A stretch of 64,000 bases of DNA, the filler included, from Collodictyon triciliatum (Eukaryota), in the NCBI GenBank assembly GCA_043381765.1. It is 21 parts of 21 records of this genome, joined end to end, with 100 filler letters (N's around TTAATTAATTAA, not from the genome) between each part and the next. Parts side by side here need not be neighbours in the genome. Positions count along the whole stretch, not along the records: positions 9,171 to 12,126 come from JBHJMP010008022.1; 20 more parts are not named here. One strand, 5' to 3'. How positions within the stretch are numbered: position 1 is the stretch's first letter; the number at the start of each line of letters is the position of its first letter. The notes under the pieces are model-generated. The model ran no database searches. It was not told the DNA's origin and saw nothing but the letters and a program-made list of their open reading frames with translations. The translations under genes and the position numbers were made by a program. Shown one piece after another: positions 9,071-32,199 of the stretch.

Positions 9071-9599
9071 NNNNNNNNNNNNNNNNNNNNNNNNNNNNNN
9101 NNNNNNNNNNNNNNTTAATTAATTAANNNNNNNNNNNNNNNNNNNNNNNNNNNNNNNNNNNNNNNNNNNNCTTTAGTTGTAAGCGGGGTTGGGGCTGGGC
9201 TCTTATATCCTTTCGGACGAATACTTGCTCTGGAGGGGTACCCTCCGACCATCTTGTGCTCCTCGTTGGTTGGGCTCGTCCGCGTGTTACGTGTAAAATG
9301 AGGATTTACAAAGATAGCTTTGGCCAACTTGGCCTAATTAATTTCTTAGATGGGCACGATACCCTCGATAGAAATTTATTTTATCAAAAAATTTCTTTTG
9401 GGAAATCGAGATGGTAAGACGAATCCCTTCCAATTGCTGGCTAAGGACACGATACTTTCCGATATATTGTTCTTGGTTGAAAACCTGGTAGTCGAGCTCT
9501 TGAGAGGGTTTTTCTTCAGGAGCGGTCAGGGTCGCAGATCGAAAGCCTCTCTCTCTCTCTCTCTCTCTCTCTTTGATTAGGTAGTGTTAGCTACTTGAT

Positions 9600-9762
9600 C
9601 GGTTTAAACAACTTTTGAACTTTTCATCATTTCCGTTATTACTAGGAAAGTATACTAAACTTTCGATTGGTAAGCCTGGAGCACTAGTATCCAAAGTCTC
9701 ATCACATTTTTTCACAAAGCTTGTGCAGTGGTGAAGGCTGCCAGGAAAGACCCGACAGCCTA
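9600..9762 (-). ncRNA. Candidate Fanzor omegaRNA scaffold / element right end
   Basis: Begins at the stop codon with hairpin GGCTGTCGGG-TCTTT-CCTGGCAGCC (10 bp, two G-U pairs that form only on the minus strand). Further stems follow: CACAA/TTGTG, ATACTA/TAGTAT, TTTCC/GGAAA. Confidence 0.55.
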
Positions 9763-11654
9763 TTTTTTAAAGCAAGGTGTATGCATATTTTGAAGGATTA
9801 AAAGAACTTTCTTGGGTATATTTTTAGCGCTGTTTAAGTCCTTTGTCAAGAATACACTCTGTTTGCTCTCTAAGCGATTGCATTCTTTACATATGAGACA
9901 TCTATACACCATTCTTTGAATTTCCTTTCAGTTTCATATATTCCAGTTCTTTTTCGCAGTTGTGGCACATCTTGGAGGTTCTAAATTCATTTACACTGAC
10001 TGCTTCAAAACGTTTGGATAGTATTTTTTGTAATCCTCTTCCGATTGTTGGCATAAAATGCTTCATCTGAGATTTTCTGCTCCAGTCTCCATACGCCAGT
10101 ACAACATCCTTGCTAAATGTCATTTCGATTCGGTCCACAAACAAGTGTTCACTTCTTTTTGTACTAACATTCTGTCTCCATCTCGTCTTTCGAAAAGGTA
10201 CTTGTTCATAAAATCTGGAAAATTCTATCTGGTATCTTGATTTCATAGATACATATTATCGAAATTTTTCATAATCGAGCGTGCATGAATTATGTTTATC
10301 AGTTATGTCTCTAAATCGATTAAAGAAACCCTTGATGTCTCAAACTGCTGATTCTCTTCAAAAGTCCTGTGACCAAAAGAAACAGCACTTTGTAAATCTG
10401 TTTTCATGCATATACCTGAATAATTATACTTTTTTTTCTCGCACAAGAGTATTTTGTGTTTTTTAAGAGATTTGCTATCATGTCATCTTTGGTGTGCCGT
10501 GCAACGTAATTTCTTACCTGTCTCATCCATCATGTAAACCATATTAAACTTGCTTGCGTCCACTCCAGCTATTATTTTTTTCGCTAATAAAGATAACTGC
10601 TCTTCCGAAAGTTCATGTATATAAACATATTCTTGGGTCTTTTGATGAAATTGGGATTTTGGATTTGAAATACCTTTCTTTTTAAACAATAATGACACCG
10701 CCAAGCCATCTGTTTGTATCATGTATTTAAAAATGTAGTCTGTTTGATGAAAGACCATCTTCTTAATTGCAAAGAACTTATCCCATAGTATCTCTTTGCA
10801 TTCTGATAAATTCTTCAATAATAATGTCTTTCCAGACAATACTAATACATCTATCAAACATGCAGTATCTTGAGTAATATGACGCGGTATATTGGCAGTT
10901 CTTATAGAAATTGGTTGAAACAGTTTGGTTCAAATGTGCTCATAAATGCGATTCATGTAAATCAGACACGGAGTGTACTTGTTTGGATTGACTTTAACGT
11001 CATATTCGATACCTTCTACAATATCGCCGGGAATGATATGACGCAAATGCGTTGTAGGCCATTCTTTATATTGTTCCAGTATGTCGAGTTTCATGAAGAT
11101 GGCTTTTTTTTTTAGCTTTCACAACTCTACCTTTTTAATAGCTTCCGTAACATTCTTGTCTTTAGGAATTGTTTGAGTTATAAAGCGCAGTAACCTCTTT
11201 ACAAAAAGCTACCTAGTGTTATTATGATAAGCTGTTAACATTTGCTTCGCCAAGTACGATAATACACGAGACAGTCCAACCAACGGAAAGCGTTCTTCTC
11301 GGGACAAAAGGAATCGAAAATCATTGAGATAAAAAGTCATCATATCTTAACTCAAACCTGATTTTTTTTTTAACTTGTGGAGTTATCATGTGAAACTATT
11401 CCGACTGCCTTTAAAGCGTACAAAAAAAAAATTTTTTTTTCATCGATTGTTGGGAGTTGTTGTGATTTCAATATGTGACATCTTGCAAATAGATAAGTGT
11501 CGGTAACCAAATAATGACACAATAAAACCGTATCGTTGATTTTGTCATAGTCATCTGCATTCTTTACAATCGACTCTAGAGATGTTTCTACATTACGATA
11601 GTCTGGTTTTACAGACTTTAGATTCTCAGACTCAAGACATTTTCTTTTCTTCAT
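9760..11654 (-). pseudogene. Fanzor1 (eukaryotic TnpB/OMEGA RNA-guided nuclease), frameshifted with internal stops
   Basis: Joined frames give MKKRK..., LSYLAKQMLTAYHNN, YDVKVNPNKY..LIYMN, KLFQPISIRTANIPRHI, FKYMIQTDGLAVSLLF, RuvC-I IAGVDASK, FYEQVPFRKTRW, VVLAYGDWS, VNEFRTSKMCHNC, YRCLICKEC and RuvC-III TKDLNSAKNI. Stop TAG is at 9760-9762. Confidence 0.88.
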
Positions 11655-12226
11655 CTGAAAGTCTTTATTTTACTTTTTCCTTTAGAAAACTACCGAGTTT
11701 TCAATTTTAATAAAACTTAATTTAATTAGTCAATTTAATAAATAATTTAAAAAACTGCATAATCAATTTATGTAAAATTAAGCATCTACCGAGACTTTCA
11801 AAATGTGCGCATTGTGGCAAACAAACACACCAAGTTTTTTATAAGTGATTTGAGACAAAACGTTGAGAACTGATTCGGCGAGTTCGAAAGGACGGTCGTA
11901 TAGCCATTGCGACTGAAATTCAACATATCGACCCCAAACAACATGATTACCGCCGCAAATGTGGATAGGATTATTTTATTTTATTTTTTGAAATGCGTGT
12001 TTGGTGGCAGGTTTACAGAGTGGGTTCTGTCTGGGTCAAGTCAACGGCTTGTTTACAATTTTTGAATTAATATTATATTAATGAAAATAAAATATAAATT
12101 GATTACAGGAATAGAATGAGATTTTTNNNNNNNNNNNNNNNNNNNNNNNNNNNNNNNNNNNNNNNNNNNNTTAATTAATTAANNNNNNNNNNNNNNNNNN
12201 NNNNNNNNNNNNNNNNNNNNNNNNNN

Positions 12227-12361: not shown

Positions 12362-14441
12362 ATGTTTCTGAGCGCTGCATCGTTTGCTGGTCGTGAAAAT
12401 GCAGTTGATACCAAGGTATCTGCGCCTCCCAAAGAAGCCGAGGAGAAAGTCGAGGAGGCAGGAAGCGACATTGACGTGATACAGGATGAAGACGAATTTG
12501 AGTGCAGCGAAGCCTCTGGCTGGACTGAAGAATCATGGATACAGTCTTTTCTATCCATGGACGGAAACGAGGTTCAATCACTATATTACCTAATTTCTTT
12601 TAATAGCGCATAAAGCTTGACTATTATTCAAATTTTACCTATTATTCTTTTTCTTTGTTCAATAATTTTATGAATAATTTCTTCTATCTTTTGGGGTGCG
12701 ATAAAATGTTCAATTTTTCTTTGAAACCTAATGGTCTTGTTTTAAACTACTTTGGAGTTCTTCACTGATGTATCGGATGATTTTTTGATGGATGACTTCA
12801 ATCTTACTGGGCTCAGTAGTGTTGTCCCGAACTATCGACAAGCTCTGCAGATTTTGCAAGATTCTGATAACGAAGGTGAAATGATTGAAATGTTTAAACA
12901 TCCAAACAAACAAACAAACAAACAAACAAACAAACAAACAAACAAACAAACAAACAAACAAACAAACAAACAAACAAACATCCAAACATCCAAACATCCA
13001 AACATCCAAACATCCAAACATCCAAACATCCAAACATCCAAACATCCAAACATCCAAACATCCAAACATCCAAACATCCGAACATCCAAACAAACATCCA
13101 AACAAACATCCAAACAAACATCCAAACAAACATCCAAACAAACATCCAAACAAACATCCAAACAAACATCCAAACAAACAAACAAACAATACATATATGA
13201 CAGTCAGTATAATTTCAAGGTGTTAATCTGTCGATTGATTTATGTTATACATTTTTCATTTTCATTTTCATTGGTAGTTTCAATCTCAATTTTCACTGAA
13301 GTGAGAAAAACATTTACAGATACTGCCATAACAGAGGATGAACAGTTGTCACTTGATCGTTCATGCATTGAACTATACGGGCTTATTCATGCCCGATTCA
13401 TAATCACTGCGCGAGGATTGGCGGCTATGGTATTAGATCCTTTACTCCTTAAGTTGCTGGAACTTTCTGTATTATTTTTGTAAAAAAAAAACAACTCCAA
13501 AACCATAATTTCGAAAGAAATATAATATACAACTCATCAATTTACAGAATGAAAAGTTTCAATCAGGCCATTTTGGTTGTTGTCCTCGAGTATTTTGTCA
13601 AAACCAATACTTGTTGCCGGTGGGGACAACAGATATTCCAAGGAAAGACACTATAAAGCTCTTTTGTCCTCGATGCGAAGAAATATATAACCCTTCATCC
13701 CGGCGTCATTCGAGTATTTATATATATATNNNNNNNNNNNNNNNNNNNNNNNNNNNNNNNNNNNNNNNNNNNNNNNNNNNNNNNNNNNNNNNNNNNNNNN
13801 NNNNNNNNNNNNNNNNNNNNNNNNNNNNNNNNNNNNNNNNNNNNNNNNNNNNNNNNNNNNNNNNNNNNNNNNNNNNNNNNNNNNNNNNNNNNNNNNNNNN
13901 NNNNNNNNNNNNNNNNNNNNNNNNNNNNNNNNNNNNNNNNNNNNNNNNNNNNNNNNNNNNNNNNNNNNNNNNNNNNNNNNNNNNNNNNNNNNNNNNNNNN
14001 NNNNNNNNNNNNNNNNNNNNNNNNNNNNNNNNNNNNNNNNNNNNNNNNNNNNNNNNNNNNNNNNNNNNNNNNNNNNNNNNNNNNNNNNNNNNNNNNNNNN
14101 NNNNNNNNNNNNNNNNNNNNNNNNNNNNNNNNNNNNNNNNNNNNNNNNNNNNNNNNNNNNNNNNNNNNNNNNNNNNNNNNNNNNNNNNNNNNNNNNNNNN
14201 NNNNNNTTCTAATCTTTCTAAATATTTATTATCTTACCGCAGAGAGCGTTTGATGAAATCATGTGAGCGCACTGACTTCCCGTCTGATGCTAGGTCATCC
14301 CTGAACAATATTGCTATAAATGGGAGCCCAGTAAGCATACCAAATGAAATTGATGCCTCAGACAAAAATCTCAGTCCCTTGCATCAGCTGACGAGTGCAA
14401 TAGAGGGCATCTCCATAACTGACCCACTCGGAAAAAACTAA
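12362..14441 (+). CDS. CSNK2B: Casein kinase II regulatory subunit beta; multi-exon, spans an internal N gap
   Basis: SWIQSFLSMDGNE|FFTDVSDDFLMDDFNLTGL...LYGLIHARFIITARGLAAM|...FGCCPRVFCQNQYLLPVG...KLFCPRCEEIYNP. The exact start is uncertain; last exon ~14243-14441. Confidence 0.93.
12897..13188. repeat. Intronic compound microsatellite (AAAC)n/(CATCCAAA)n
   Basis: Read directly from the sequence; lies inside a CK2 beta intron. Confidence 0.95.
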
Positions 14442-22884: not shown

Positions 22885-23658
22885 ATTTATTTATTATTAT
22901 TTGGACCCGGTGTTGATTGTATCGTTGATTATTAACTTGTGTTTGATTGCTGAGCGTGCGATAGAGTCCATACAATAAATTTGAAGTTTCCGTTACAGAT
23001 GTAAAACGTGAGAATAATGTGCCAAAAAATTTTACGCTTGGGTCGTAGAAAAAAATGTCCACTTACTGTTTTAAGGTTCAGAATACCGAACAAAACATTC
23101 AGTGAGTATACAAAGCATACAAAGCATACAAAGCATCTCACCCGAAAAAATGAGAATGCGCGTTGTGAGAAAAGTCGTCTTTCGGTGGTTTATAAAAGTT
23201 TAGCCATGATGATAATTTACCTTTTCACACATTACATTTCGTCAAAGAGCATTAGTTTAAGGTAACAAGAGCATTTTTTTTATTTGTTTTTGTTTTTTCA
23301 ACATTCATTTCATCAAAACATAAGCAAGAGTATTTCGATCGTCTGAAGTAGAATGAGTGACGACGATGCTGATTCCCAAAATTATAAATTAAATAAAAAA
23401 AATATGAAGAAAAGAGAGGTCGTGGAATGAGGAGTACGATAAACGGGGAAAAAAGCGAGGGAGAGAGAAAGGGCTCTTGCAAAACTCAAGAGGCAAAATG
23501 AGTTGCGTGAAGAAAGGGAAATCAAGAATCAAAAAGAGAAAATAACGAAATAGAAAAGTGGAAGGTGAAAAAATAAAAAAAAAAAGTAAATAGAGTTTAA
23601 GATGTACTGAAGTTTTTTTATAAATTTGTCCATGTAACAGCTCCTGATGAGATTTGCT

Positions 23659-31165: not shown

Positions 31166-32199
31166 AGCCCATCCATATTACTATTAATTAGGCACGACAA
31201 GTTTATACCCTTCTTTGTCCCTAGAAATAATAGTCAATGCAAGTATATTCCCCTTAATGAAGTGGGTTGGAACTGCTCCGTAAAAAACAGTGTAAGTTTT
31301 ATGTCATTTGAAAAGATTGAGATATATAATTGACGGCTTTTCATGCTGATATTGTGTTAAGTTTGAATATTGAATGGCATACATATAAAATCAATTAGTT
31401 CGATTTGACTGAGTAACAAGATAAGCAGAAAGGTTATTTCGTTGTCCTATCTACATGAGCGACGACCAAGTAAATTCCCATAATTTGAGAAGGAAATAAG
31501 AAAAAAATTGACTGCAAAATGAAAAGTATAATGAGTTTCCTTAAAAAAAAAAGAAAGGGAAACCGGACCAGCAAATATGCAGGTTTACGACAGGCAAAGA
31601 AAGCAAAAGGAGACACCGCAGCAAATAGAAGAAAGGCTTCATGACCAAGCATCAACTCACTACGAATCGAAGAGAACAAGAAAGGCCTGATGAAAGGGCT
31701 AGTAGGCTTCATGTTCTAGCCATCAACTCATAAAGAGCAACATAATTATGAATATAGTGCTCAGTATTAATTGTTATGCTTCGTTCATCCGTTTCCATGT
31801 TTTCTTTTTTATTTTCACCCATTCCAAGGCGAAGCACAGGTACCAAGGCTAGTATTAAGTGTATATCTATATCATTTACATTTATTTTTATTTTCTTCAC
31901 TACCCAAGCCATACAAAGCTGAGGGTGAATACCAGACCTTAATTTGTTAAGAAATCATCCCATCCACTTAATCCTACACCCACAGAGCACTTTGTCTCCT
32001 TTCAGCCATAATCGACCCCAGAGAGCACAGACCGGAACATATATTTGTATTGGTATCGATAACATAGCAGGAGGAGGAAGAAGAGAATAGAAGACCTCAC
32101 CATTTTTGCGACTTTTCGCCTACCAAAGAATCATTGATTGGGACGGACAGCTGCGCACTGCTGCAGACGTCCTGAAGGAGATAAGTAGGGGCGCCGTGG

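What the first reader, a model, noticed from the sequence alone, without database searches (positions are those of the whole stretch)
9600..9762. Strand-specific structured region just after the Fanzor stop: candidate omegaRNA
Seen: a GC-rich 10-bp hairpin at 9736-9760 overlaps the stop codon, and its two G-U pairs form only on the Fanzor-sense strand. Next come a nested stem (TCACCAC..CACAA-GCT-TTGTG..GTGATGA), ATACTA/TAGTAT and TTTCC/GGAAA, ending near ...AAAAGTTGTTTAAA at ~9603. Known: Fanzor/TnpB omegaRNAs are encoded at the ORF 3' end up to the transposon right end, and the guide comes from flanking DNA. Inference: the scaffold spans about 9762-9603 and the guide is the next 15-20 nt (toward 9580).
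Basis: partly seen in the sequence, partly recalled or inferred. Interest (0 to 1): 0.75.

Follow-up and report, generated by a model that had tools for sequence, protein, structure and literature searches.

The report
Helitron-borne Fanzor guide-RNA scaffold
The hairpins are the worn guide-RNA scaffold of a dead RNA-guided nuclease (Fanzor1) gene that a rolling-circle transposon captured and copied hundreds of times, and the RNA ends about 40 bases earlier than first proposed, at a hairpin that also looks like the transposon's stop signal.

Summary
Partly right. The stretch is the right end of a decayed Fanzor1 element with hundreds of copies in this genome. Copies stop sharply at CTAG (9642), not 9603; 9621-9603 belongs to a different repeat, and the TTTCC/GGAAA stem is private to this copy. 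The TAG stop is a minority variant: most copies and two intact relatives read through the first hairpin. Stems 1 and 2 (9761-9699) are homologous to 3' ends of giant-virus Fanzor1s, where they covary; a model built only from those finds them as best hit in 29 of 29 sibling loci, on the gene's strand (this copy scores weakly). So scaffold 9761-9641, guide 9640-9622; no RNA evidence exists. The carrier is a non-autonomous Helitron1: long copies hold a decayed RepHel/STPR start, Fanzor-less siblings end in a canonical terminator where the cassette begins, ends are hairpin-9 nt-CTAG|T, no duplication. The viral relatives are mariner-type, so the RNA's 3' stem was swapped for a Helitron terminator. 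All copies examined are dead and decaying neutrally. The scan noted such ends before on other contigs of this genome and judged Helitron unproven or wrong; the linkage found here contradicts that.

The parts
9712..11654 (-). Decayed Fanzor1 gene (ATG at 11654; stops and frameshifts throughout; family-modal stop TGA at 9714-9712, inside stem 2)
   Evidence: RuvC D at 10563-10549, E at 9994-9974, KD in place of RD at 9843; 68% and 60% identity of two pieces to intact P0001; P0001's best solved relatives are GtFz1, PpFz1, SpuFz1
11655..12126 (-). Non-coding 5' part of the Fanzor cassette; the contig ends at 12126, so this copy's Helitron shell is not in the window
   Evidence: 40 scored matches at 84-94%; continues upstream into the Helitron shell in siblings
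9760..9762 (-). TAG, a minority variant of a Gln codon
   Evidence: T in 19 of 48, C in 27 of 48; P0001 and P0002 read KKQAVG here
9735..9761 (-). Stem-loop 1 of the candidate omegaRNA (11 bp, two G-U)
   Evidence: aligned to the covarying stem 1 of viral relatives
9699..9734 (-). Stem-loop 2: 8-bp outer stem, one unpaired A, inner hairpin, 5-nt A-rich bulge; decayed in this copy
   Evidence: same register in viral relatives with changed pairs; 90% of cells paired over 48 copies
9684..9698 (-). Linker matched by the last 15 positions of the viral-derived model
9654..9671 (-). Sub-terminal 18-nt hairpin (7-bp palindrome in the family, two mismatches here): Helitron1-type terminator and last stem of the RNA
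   Evidence: loop inverted in 10 of 55 copies
9642..9645 (-). CTAG, right end of the element
   Evidence: similarity between copies ends here; CTAG in 30, CTAA in 4 of 48 ends
9641..9641 (-). T of the target dinucleotide, probably read as the last scaffold base
   Evidence: T in 37 of 41 well-preserved ends; inference from PMC10711439 section 25
9622..9640 (-). Unique flank, the would-be guide
   Evidence: differs between all copies; next repeat starts at 9621
9171..9621 (-).
   Evidence: 40 scored matches of 57 candidates, most starting at query 22-28 with unrelated DNA upstream

Best explanation
9761-9641 (minus strand) is the decayed template of a Fanzor1 omegaRNA scaffold at the right end of a non-autonomous Helitron1 element of about 3.5 kb. 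When intact, the RNA was cut from the Fanzor transcript, began in the last codons of the gene with stem 1, ran through stem 2, a linker and the terminal hairpin to CTAG plus the target T, and took the next 15-20 flanking bases as guide (inferred from known Fanzor1s). A resident Helitron lost or bypassed its own terminator and took up the Fanzor cassette; the mariner-type terminal stem of the viral relatives is replaced by a hairpin 9 nt before CTAG that served as rolling-circle terminator on single-stranded DNA (inferred) and sits inside the RNA. RepHel supplied in trans copied the element in one burst to several hundred places; all copies examined have since decayed. Shown: boundaries, structure homology, Helitron linkage, no duplication, neutral decay. 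Inferred: expression, binding, cleavage, terminator function, order of events.
For: Right end sharp at CTAG|T. Stems 1-2 covary in 12 viral/metagenome relatives: 13 of 22 pairs with double changes, 0 of 500 shuffles reach the covariation score. A model built from those alone gives stems 1-2-linker as best hit in 29 of 29 sibling loci on the gene's strand, 17 at E<=0.01, best 5.6e-6; a sequence-only profile finds nothing under E 1.6; 4 Fanzor-free control loci give no hit. Intact P0001 reads through stem 1 as GtFz1 does (PMC10432273 passage). Helitron1: RepHel start (54-62% aa, 74-80% nt) in long copies; the RepHel gene has STPRs, Helitron_like_N and PIF1, and STPRs are almost confined to Helitron1 (PMC11417382 passage); 4 of 19 loci found with RepHel DNA run on into the cassette and 3 end in a canonical terminator; of 67 shell anchors 49 are followed by the cassette, 6 by a canonical terminator at the same point, 12 by neither. 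No target duplication in 13 two-ended or 32 mixed copies.
Against: No RNA or protein data. This copy alone scores only 8.6 bits, E 2.7, seventh of 15 hits in the window. In a second set of 15 copies only 9 gave full hits, 1 a partial one and 5 none at E<=3. No covariation within the 48 genomic copies (171 of 500 shuffles as high), and the stems are no better conserved than the gene: expected for dead copies, but it gives no support. Stem 1 starts 18 nt further from the RD motif than in the viral relatives, so its homology rests on shape more than position. The left end is not fixed to a base and shows no clear 5'-TC. The ACTAG/CTAGT closing stem is weak (over 0.5 in 4 of 48). The DNA of the nearest intact relative P0001 could not be fetched, so when the carrier changed is unknown. 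The 12 viral rows are related and the structure was drawn from them.
Confidence: 0.75

Rival explanations
1. Helitron passenger with a dead RNA: stems 1-2 are inherited omegaRNA remnants, but losing the mariner terminal stem at capture disabled the guide, the last hairpin acts only on DNA, and the burst owed nothing to Fanzor.
For: Terminal hairpin is a perfect DNA palindrome whose loop is inverted in 10 of 55 copies; the last 31 nt vary 2.5-3 times more than the gene; closing stem weak; no intact gene among 50 long copies.
Against: The family-level frame is open with its catalytic motifs and codon positions decay equally, so the master gene was intact at the burst; the part beyond stem 1 is reported as variable and largely dispensable in Fanzor1s (PMC11423790 section 5); P0001's tail changes are compatible with keeping stem 1 paired (inference).
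Confidence: 0.17
2. The element is not a Helitron but a mariner-derived or unclassified duplication-flanked Fanzor1 element whose end only resembles a Helitron end (reading of earlier scan notes).
For: The relatives with DNA are flanked by TA and inverted repeats (28 of 38); no 5'-TC.
Against: No such inverted repeat in this genome at one mismatch; no duplication; RepHel remnant and terminator-ended siblings share the shell.
Confidence: 0.05
3. One reading: a 160-nt scaffold to 9603 with the guide beyond.
For: The short complementary words are present in this copy.
Against: No copy shares DNA beyond 9641; 9621 onward is another repeat; the longer stretch folds no better than shuffles.
Confidence: 0.02

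Closest known systems
Fanzor1 omegaRNA (GtFz1, SpuFz1, PpFz1; PMC10432273 passages, PMC11423790 section 5 and passages)
   Same: Structured RNA between the end of the gene and the transposon right end, overlapping the last codons as in GtFz1 (17 aa), first stem-loop followed by further stems, guide from the flank; length about 120 nt plus guide, between SpuFz1 (90) and GtFz1 (150).
   Different: Ends in a Helitron hairpin-CTAG, not an inverted repeat; dead; not shown to be expressed. The published omegaRNA sequences were not compared (Table S3 not found).
CRe-1, -2, -3 of Chlamydomonas reinhardtii, Fanzor1 in non-autonomous Helitron2 (PMC3627910 parts 2-4 read; PMC10530073 passages)
   Same: Fanzor1 riding a non-autonomous rolling-circle element, no transposase in cis, many 5'-truncated or internally deleted copies, conserved 3' RNA.
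   Different: Helitron1-type end (CTAG|T, STPR-bearing RepHel) rather than Helitron2 with asymmetric inverted repeats and TTTT targets; no duplications even in truncated copies; intronless; hundreds of copies.
Mariner-type Fanzor1 elements of giant viruses (PGv-1 kind; loci L161-L298)
   Same: Protein 38-47% identical to P0001; stems 1-2 and linker in the same order and register.
   Different: They end in a long stem formed with the inverted repeat and TA; here that part is replaced.
Canonical Helitron1 / Helraiser (PMC4778049 passages)
   Same: 18-19-nt hairpin 9-11 nt before CTAG, insertion before T, AT-rich 3' flank, capture by terminator loss or read-through.
   Different: 5'-TC not demonstrated; the captured cargo is a whole RNA-guided nuclease cassette.

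Membership tests
Fanzor1 | RuvC D, E just before a C4 zinc finger, RD motif | tested here: met
   Motifs present at family level and in P0001; window copy has D, E and KD but is broken
Fanzor1 | Closest solved structures are Fanzor1s | tested here: met
   P0001 hits GtFz1 2.1e-28, PpFz1, SpuFz1 only
Fanzor omegaRNA | Lies between gene end and element right end, conserved up to the end, variable beyond | tested here: met
Fanzor omegaRNA | Structure conserved across families with compensatory changes | tested here: met
   Stems 1-2; not for the terminal hairpin; none within this genome's copies
Fanzor omegaRNA | Expressed as a small RNA reaching 14-20 nt into the flank | not testable with these tools
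   No RNA holder listed; the one run is contigs of uncertain kind
Fanzor omegaRNA | Binds the protein and guides cleavage next to a TAM | not testable with these tools
   bench work
Helitron1 | Sub-terminal hairpin about 10 nt before CTRR-3' | tested here: met
   34 of 48 ends CTAG or CTAA, 9-nt spacer
Helitron1 | Insertion between A and T | tested here: inconclusive
   T after the end in 37 of 41; the A depends on where the left end lies
Helitron1 | 5'-TC terminus | tested here: inconclusive
   Left end near (A)TAAATTT before a GTTT microsatellite, not fixed to a base, no shared TC in 22 left ends
Helitron1 | No target-site duplication, no terminal inverted repeat | tested here: met
   0 of 13; 2 of 32 against 7% by chance; viral-type repeat absent. 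Some left junctions were only roughly placed
Helitron1 | Derived from or sharing sequence with a RepHel element | tested here: met
Helitron2 (CRe type) | Asymmetric inverted repeats, the 3' one 20-30 bp from the end, T|T target | tested here: not met
   Only a 7-bp inverted match, internal on the 5' side and about 48 nt from the 3' end; end is CTAG
Tc1/mariner Fanzor element | Terminal inverted repeats with TA duplication | tested here: not met
   met by the viral relatives

The most novel reading that the evidence does not exclude
A complete Fanzor1 system changed carrier, from a cut-and-paste mariner-type element to a canonical Helitron1, and stayed active by rebuilding the 3' stem of its guide RNA as the Helitron terminator, so one hairpin works on single-stranded DNA as stop signal and in the RNA as scaffold. 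Each new insertion then made a guide to its own empty allele, and that homing is why Fanzor-bearing shells outnumber Fanzor-less ones (49 against 6 in my sample) and reached hundreds of copies.
Probability: 0.25. Interest if true: 0.75.

Novelty: new variant of a known kind. Interest (0 to 1): 0.5.

Why it matters
The RNA itself is of a known kind and this copy is dead. What adds something is the anatomy: the same genome holds the RepHel donor family, Fanzor-less siblings and the Fanzor-bearing derivative, with the capture point visible, and outside relatives show which part of the guide RNA was kept and which was replaced. That bears on two open questions named in PMC13565253 (passages): how Fanzor1 moves between transposon superfamilies, and what a homing nuclease does for a Helitron that does not excise. 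It also defines a testable scaffold whose last stem is a Helitron terminator. Fanzor-Helitron pairs are in print (Helitron2 in PMC3627910; unspecified non-autonomous Helitron families in PMC10530073). I found no description of a Helitron1-borne Fanzor in paper searches, but Repbase was not available and may hold one.

Tried and rejected
Rfam: no match at E<=5. Sequencing runs: no RNA holder listed; the single run X1 (kind guessed, contigs only) covers the element with many variants and says nothing on expression. RNAalifold on 48 copies recovered only stem 1 and a spurious pairing. One search used a mis-indexed structure and is void; one search is the corrected count. Helitron2 reading from a 7-bp inverted match: rejected on position. 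Mariner donor in this genome: none at one mismatch (assembly incomplete). Intact copy: none in 50 copies of 1.7 kb or more, longest open stretch 311 aa. Whether the loop inversion arose once or many times is unresolved: 9 changes for 10 copies, no clustering, but a star tree., 120 only showed that the family is large. For alignment A4 I used 12 of 48 located viral/metagenome ends (the near clade) and dropped L168 and L194, which misaligned. A 3'-end hairpin scan of RepHel loci with strict settings found no terminator; they were seen by eye and.

Full report
Setting. The window is a string of unrelated contigs of about 3 kb joined by N linkers. The finding lies on contig 9171-12126, at the 3' end of a gene on the minus strand that is broken by many stops and frameshifts. 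Two pieces are 68% and 60% identical to an intact 648-aa protein, P0001, whose only solved relatives are the Fanzor1 proteins GtFz1, PpFz1 and SpuFz1. The family is large: 380 candidates for the 3' DNA, 40 scored, 86-90% identical; 478 candidates for a protein piece, 150 scored, 66-82% identical. None of 50 long copies is intact. In 31 copies not picked by the 3' query the three codon positions differ equally from the majority (0.068, 0.072, 0.064), and 55 copies form a star tree with end branches near 0.07: one burst, then neutral decay.

The observation. The 10-bp hairpin at 9760-9736 with two G-U pairs is there. The nested stem is a family feature that has decayed in this copy. The two last pairings are not real: ATACTA/TAGTAT is not formed in the ensemble, and TTTCC/GGAAA occurs in 1 of 48 copies.

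The right end. In 30 aligned loci similarity stops at CTAG, 9645-9642 in the window. Of 48 distinct ends 30 are CTAG and 4 CTAA; the next base is T in 37 of the 41 best-preserved ends (7 dropped for more than two mismatches to the end motif); an 18-nt palindrome lies 9 nt upstream. The stop is not fixed either: 27 of 48 copies have CAG for TAG, the commonest spacing (16 of 48) reads through stem 1 to a TGA in stem 2, and P0001 and P0002 have the same read-through tail. The GtFz1 omegaRNA likewise overlaps 17 codons (PMC10432273, passage).

Is it an omegaRNA? Within this genome there is no covariation and the stems are not better kept than the gene (0.096 against a median of 0.065), as expected of dead copies. 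The test came from outside. Relatives with DNA, 38-47% identical to P0001, lie in giant-virus and aquatic metagenome contigs. Of 59 distinct 3' regions 48 had a locatable end, and 28 of 38 with enough upstream DNA have a TA-flanked inverted repeat. In the 12 nearest, stems 1 and 2 covary (13 of 22 pairs; 0 of 500 shuffles; related rows, structure drawn from them). Their stem 2 has the same register as here: 8-pair outer stem, one A, inner hairpin, 5-nt A-rich bulge, with changed pairs. A covariance model built from these 12 alone finds stems 1-2 and the linker as the best hit in 29 of 29 sibling loci on the gene's strand, 17 at E<=0.01 and 25 at E<=0.1 (E-values rough). A sequence-only profile does not. 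In 15 copies found by other queries it gave 9 full hits, 1 partial and 5 none; 4 Fanzor-free loci gave none. The window copy is hit at 9762-9684 but at only 8.6 bits. Beyond the linker the relatives have a small stem and a long stem made with the inverted repeat; here the Helitron-type hairpin stands instead. In solved Fanzor1s the part beyond stem 1 is variable (PMC11423790 section 5), and fixed target bases can be part of the scaffold (PMC10711439 section 25; PMC13565253 passage), so the T at 9641 is probably scaffold and the guide 9640-9622. No expression data exist.

The carrier. Full copies run about 1 kb further upstream than this contig, to about 3.5 kb. The genome has a RepHel gene with STPRs, Helitron_like_N and PIF1 domains, partly masked. 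Long Fanzor copies carry its decayed start (54-62% amino-acid, 74-80% nucleotide identity). Searching from the RepHel side, 4 of 19 loci run on into the Fanzor cassette on the same strand and 3 end in a canonical Helitron terminator. Of 67 shell anchors, 49 are followed by the cassette, 6 by a canonical hairpin and CTAG-like end (one of them loosely) at the point where the cassette begins, 12 by neither, mostly contig ends or deletions. There is no target duplication (0 of 13; 2 of 32 against 7% by chance) and no viral-type inverted repeat. STPRs are almost confined to Helitron1 (PMC11417382 passage); hairpin, CTAG|T, AT-rich 3' flank and read-through capture match Helraiser (PMC4778049 passages). 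The left end is the weak point: it lies near an (A)TAAATTT motif before a GTTT microsatellite, is shared with Fanzor-less siblings, and shows no common TC. This window's own copy lacks its left part, so its shell is inferred from siblings.

Mechanism. Shown: boundaries, cross-family structure, Helitron linkage, burst and decay. Inferred: the cassette was captured when the Helitron's terminator was lost or bypassed; the new hairpin-CTAG ended rolling-circle copying by RepHel in trans; the transcript yielded a scaffold of about 120 nt plus a flank guide that could cut empty alleles and favour homing. That homing drove the burst is more speculative (0.25); the 49-to-6 excess is suggestive but most loci were seeded from Fanzor copies, although a search seeded from a Fanzor-less copy also returned mostly rows that stop before its terminator.

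Comparison and novelty. Fanzor1 omegaRNAs, and Fanzor1 on Helitron2 elements (CRe-1 to -3; PMC3627910 parts 2-4 of 7 read), are known; PMC10530073 (passages) mentions non-autonomous Helitron families without type, and its supplement search showed no table rows. Searches showed no Helitron1-borne Fanzor or carrier switch traced at this level; Repbase and unseen supplements may hold one. Earlier notes of this scan on other contigs of the genome call such ends omegaRNA scaffolds and judge the Helitron idea unproven or wrong; I could not see their sequences and assume the same family. I had the Helitron reading before the look-up (note 14); the wording that the last stem doubles as terminator appears in one of them. 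Verdict: new variant of a known kind, interest 0.5.

Noticed in passing
window 9671-9654 and siblings: The loop of the terminal palindrome is inverted in 10 of 55 copies scattered over a star tree, and the last 31 nt vary 2.5-3 times more than the gene.
   Followed up: partly
3' flanks of 41 copies; L116, L122: Flank is A-rich with an ATAAA-like motif at +4 to +10, also after Fanzor-less siblings; a similar motif precedes the left end.
   Followed up: partly
window 9621-9171 (minus); L353-L363: 5' end of another repeat with a sharp start, a GA microsatellite and a long low-complexity open frame; perhaps a retrotransposon first gene, not identified.
   Followed up: partly
window 23074-23520 and 31247-31808: Two more fragments of the RepHel-derived Helitron shell on other contigs of the window; the first belongs to a family followed by a short tandem repeat.
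   Followed up: no
L070, L071, L157: Three copies join the Helitron shell directly to about the same point inside the Fanzor gene, a possible deletion subfamily; in L157 a worn canonical terminator lies at the join.
   Followed up: no
L132 (G000:C6377:627-4208): RepHel frame open for 1194 codons (partly masked, cut by the contig end): candidate source of transposase in trans.
   Followed up: partly
window 12362-14441 (plus): Intron-containing casein kinase II beta gene on the neighbouring contig; Pfam CK_II_beta E 1.3e-8.
   Followed up: no
L078, L156, L375: These copies share another repeat inserted or captured in the 5' part.
   Followed up: no
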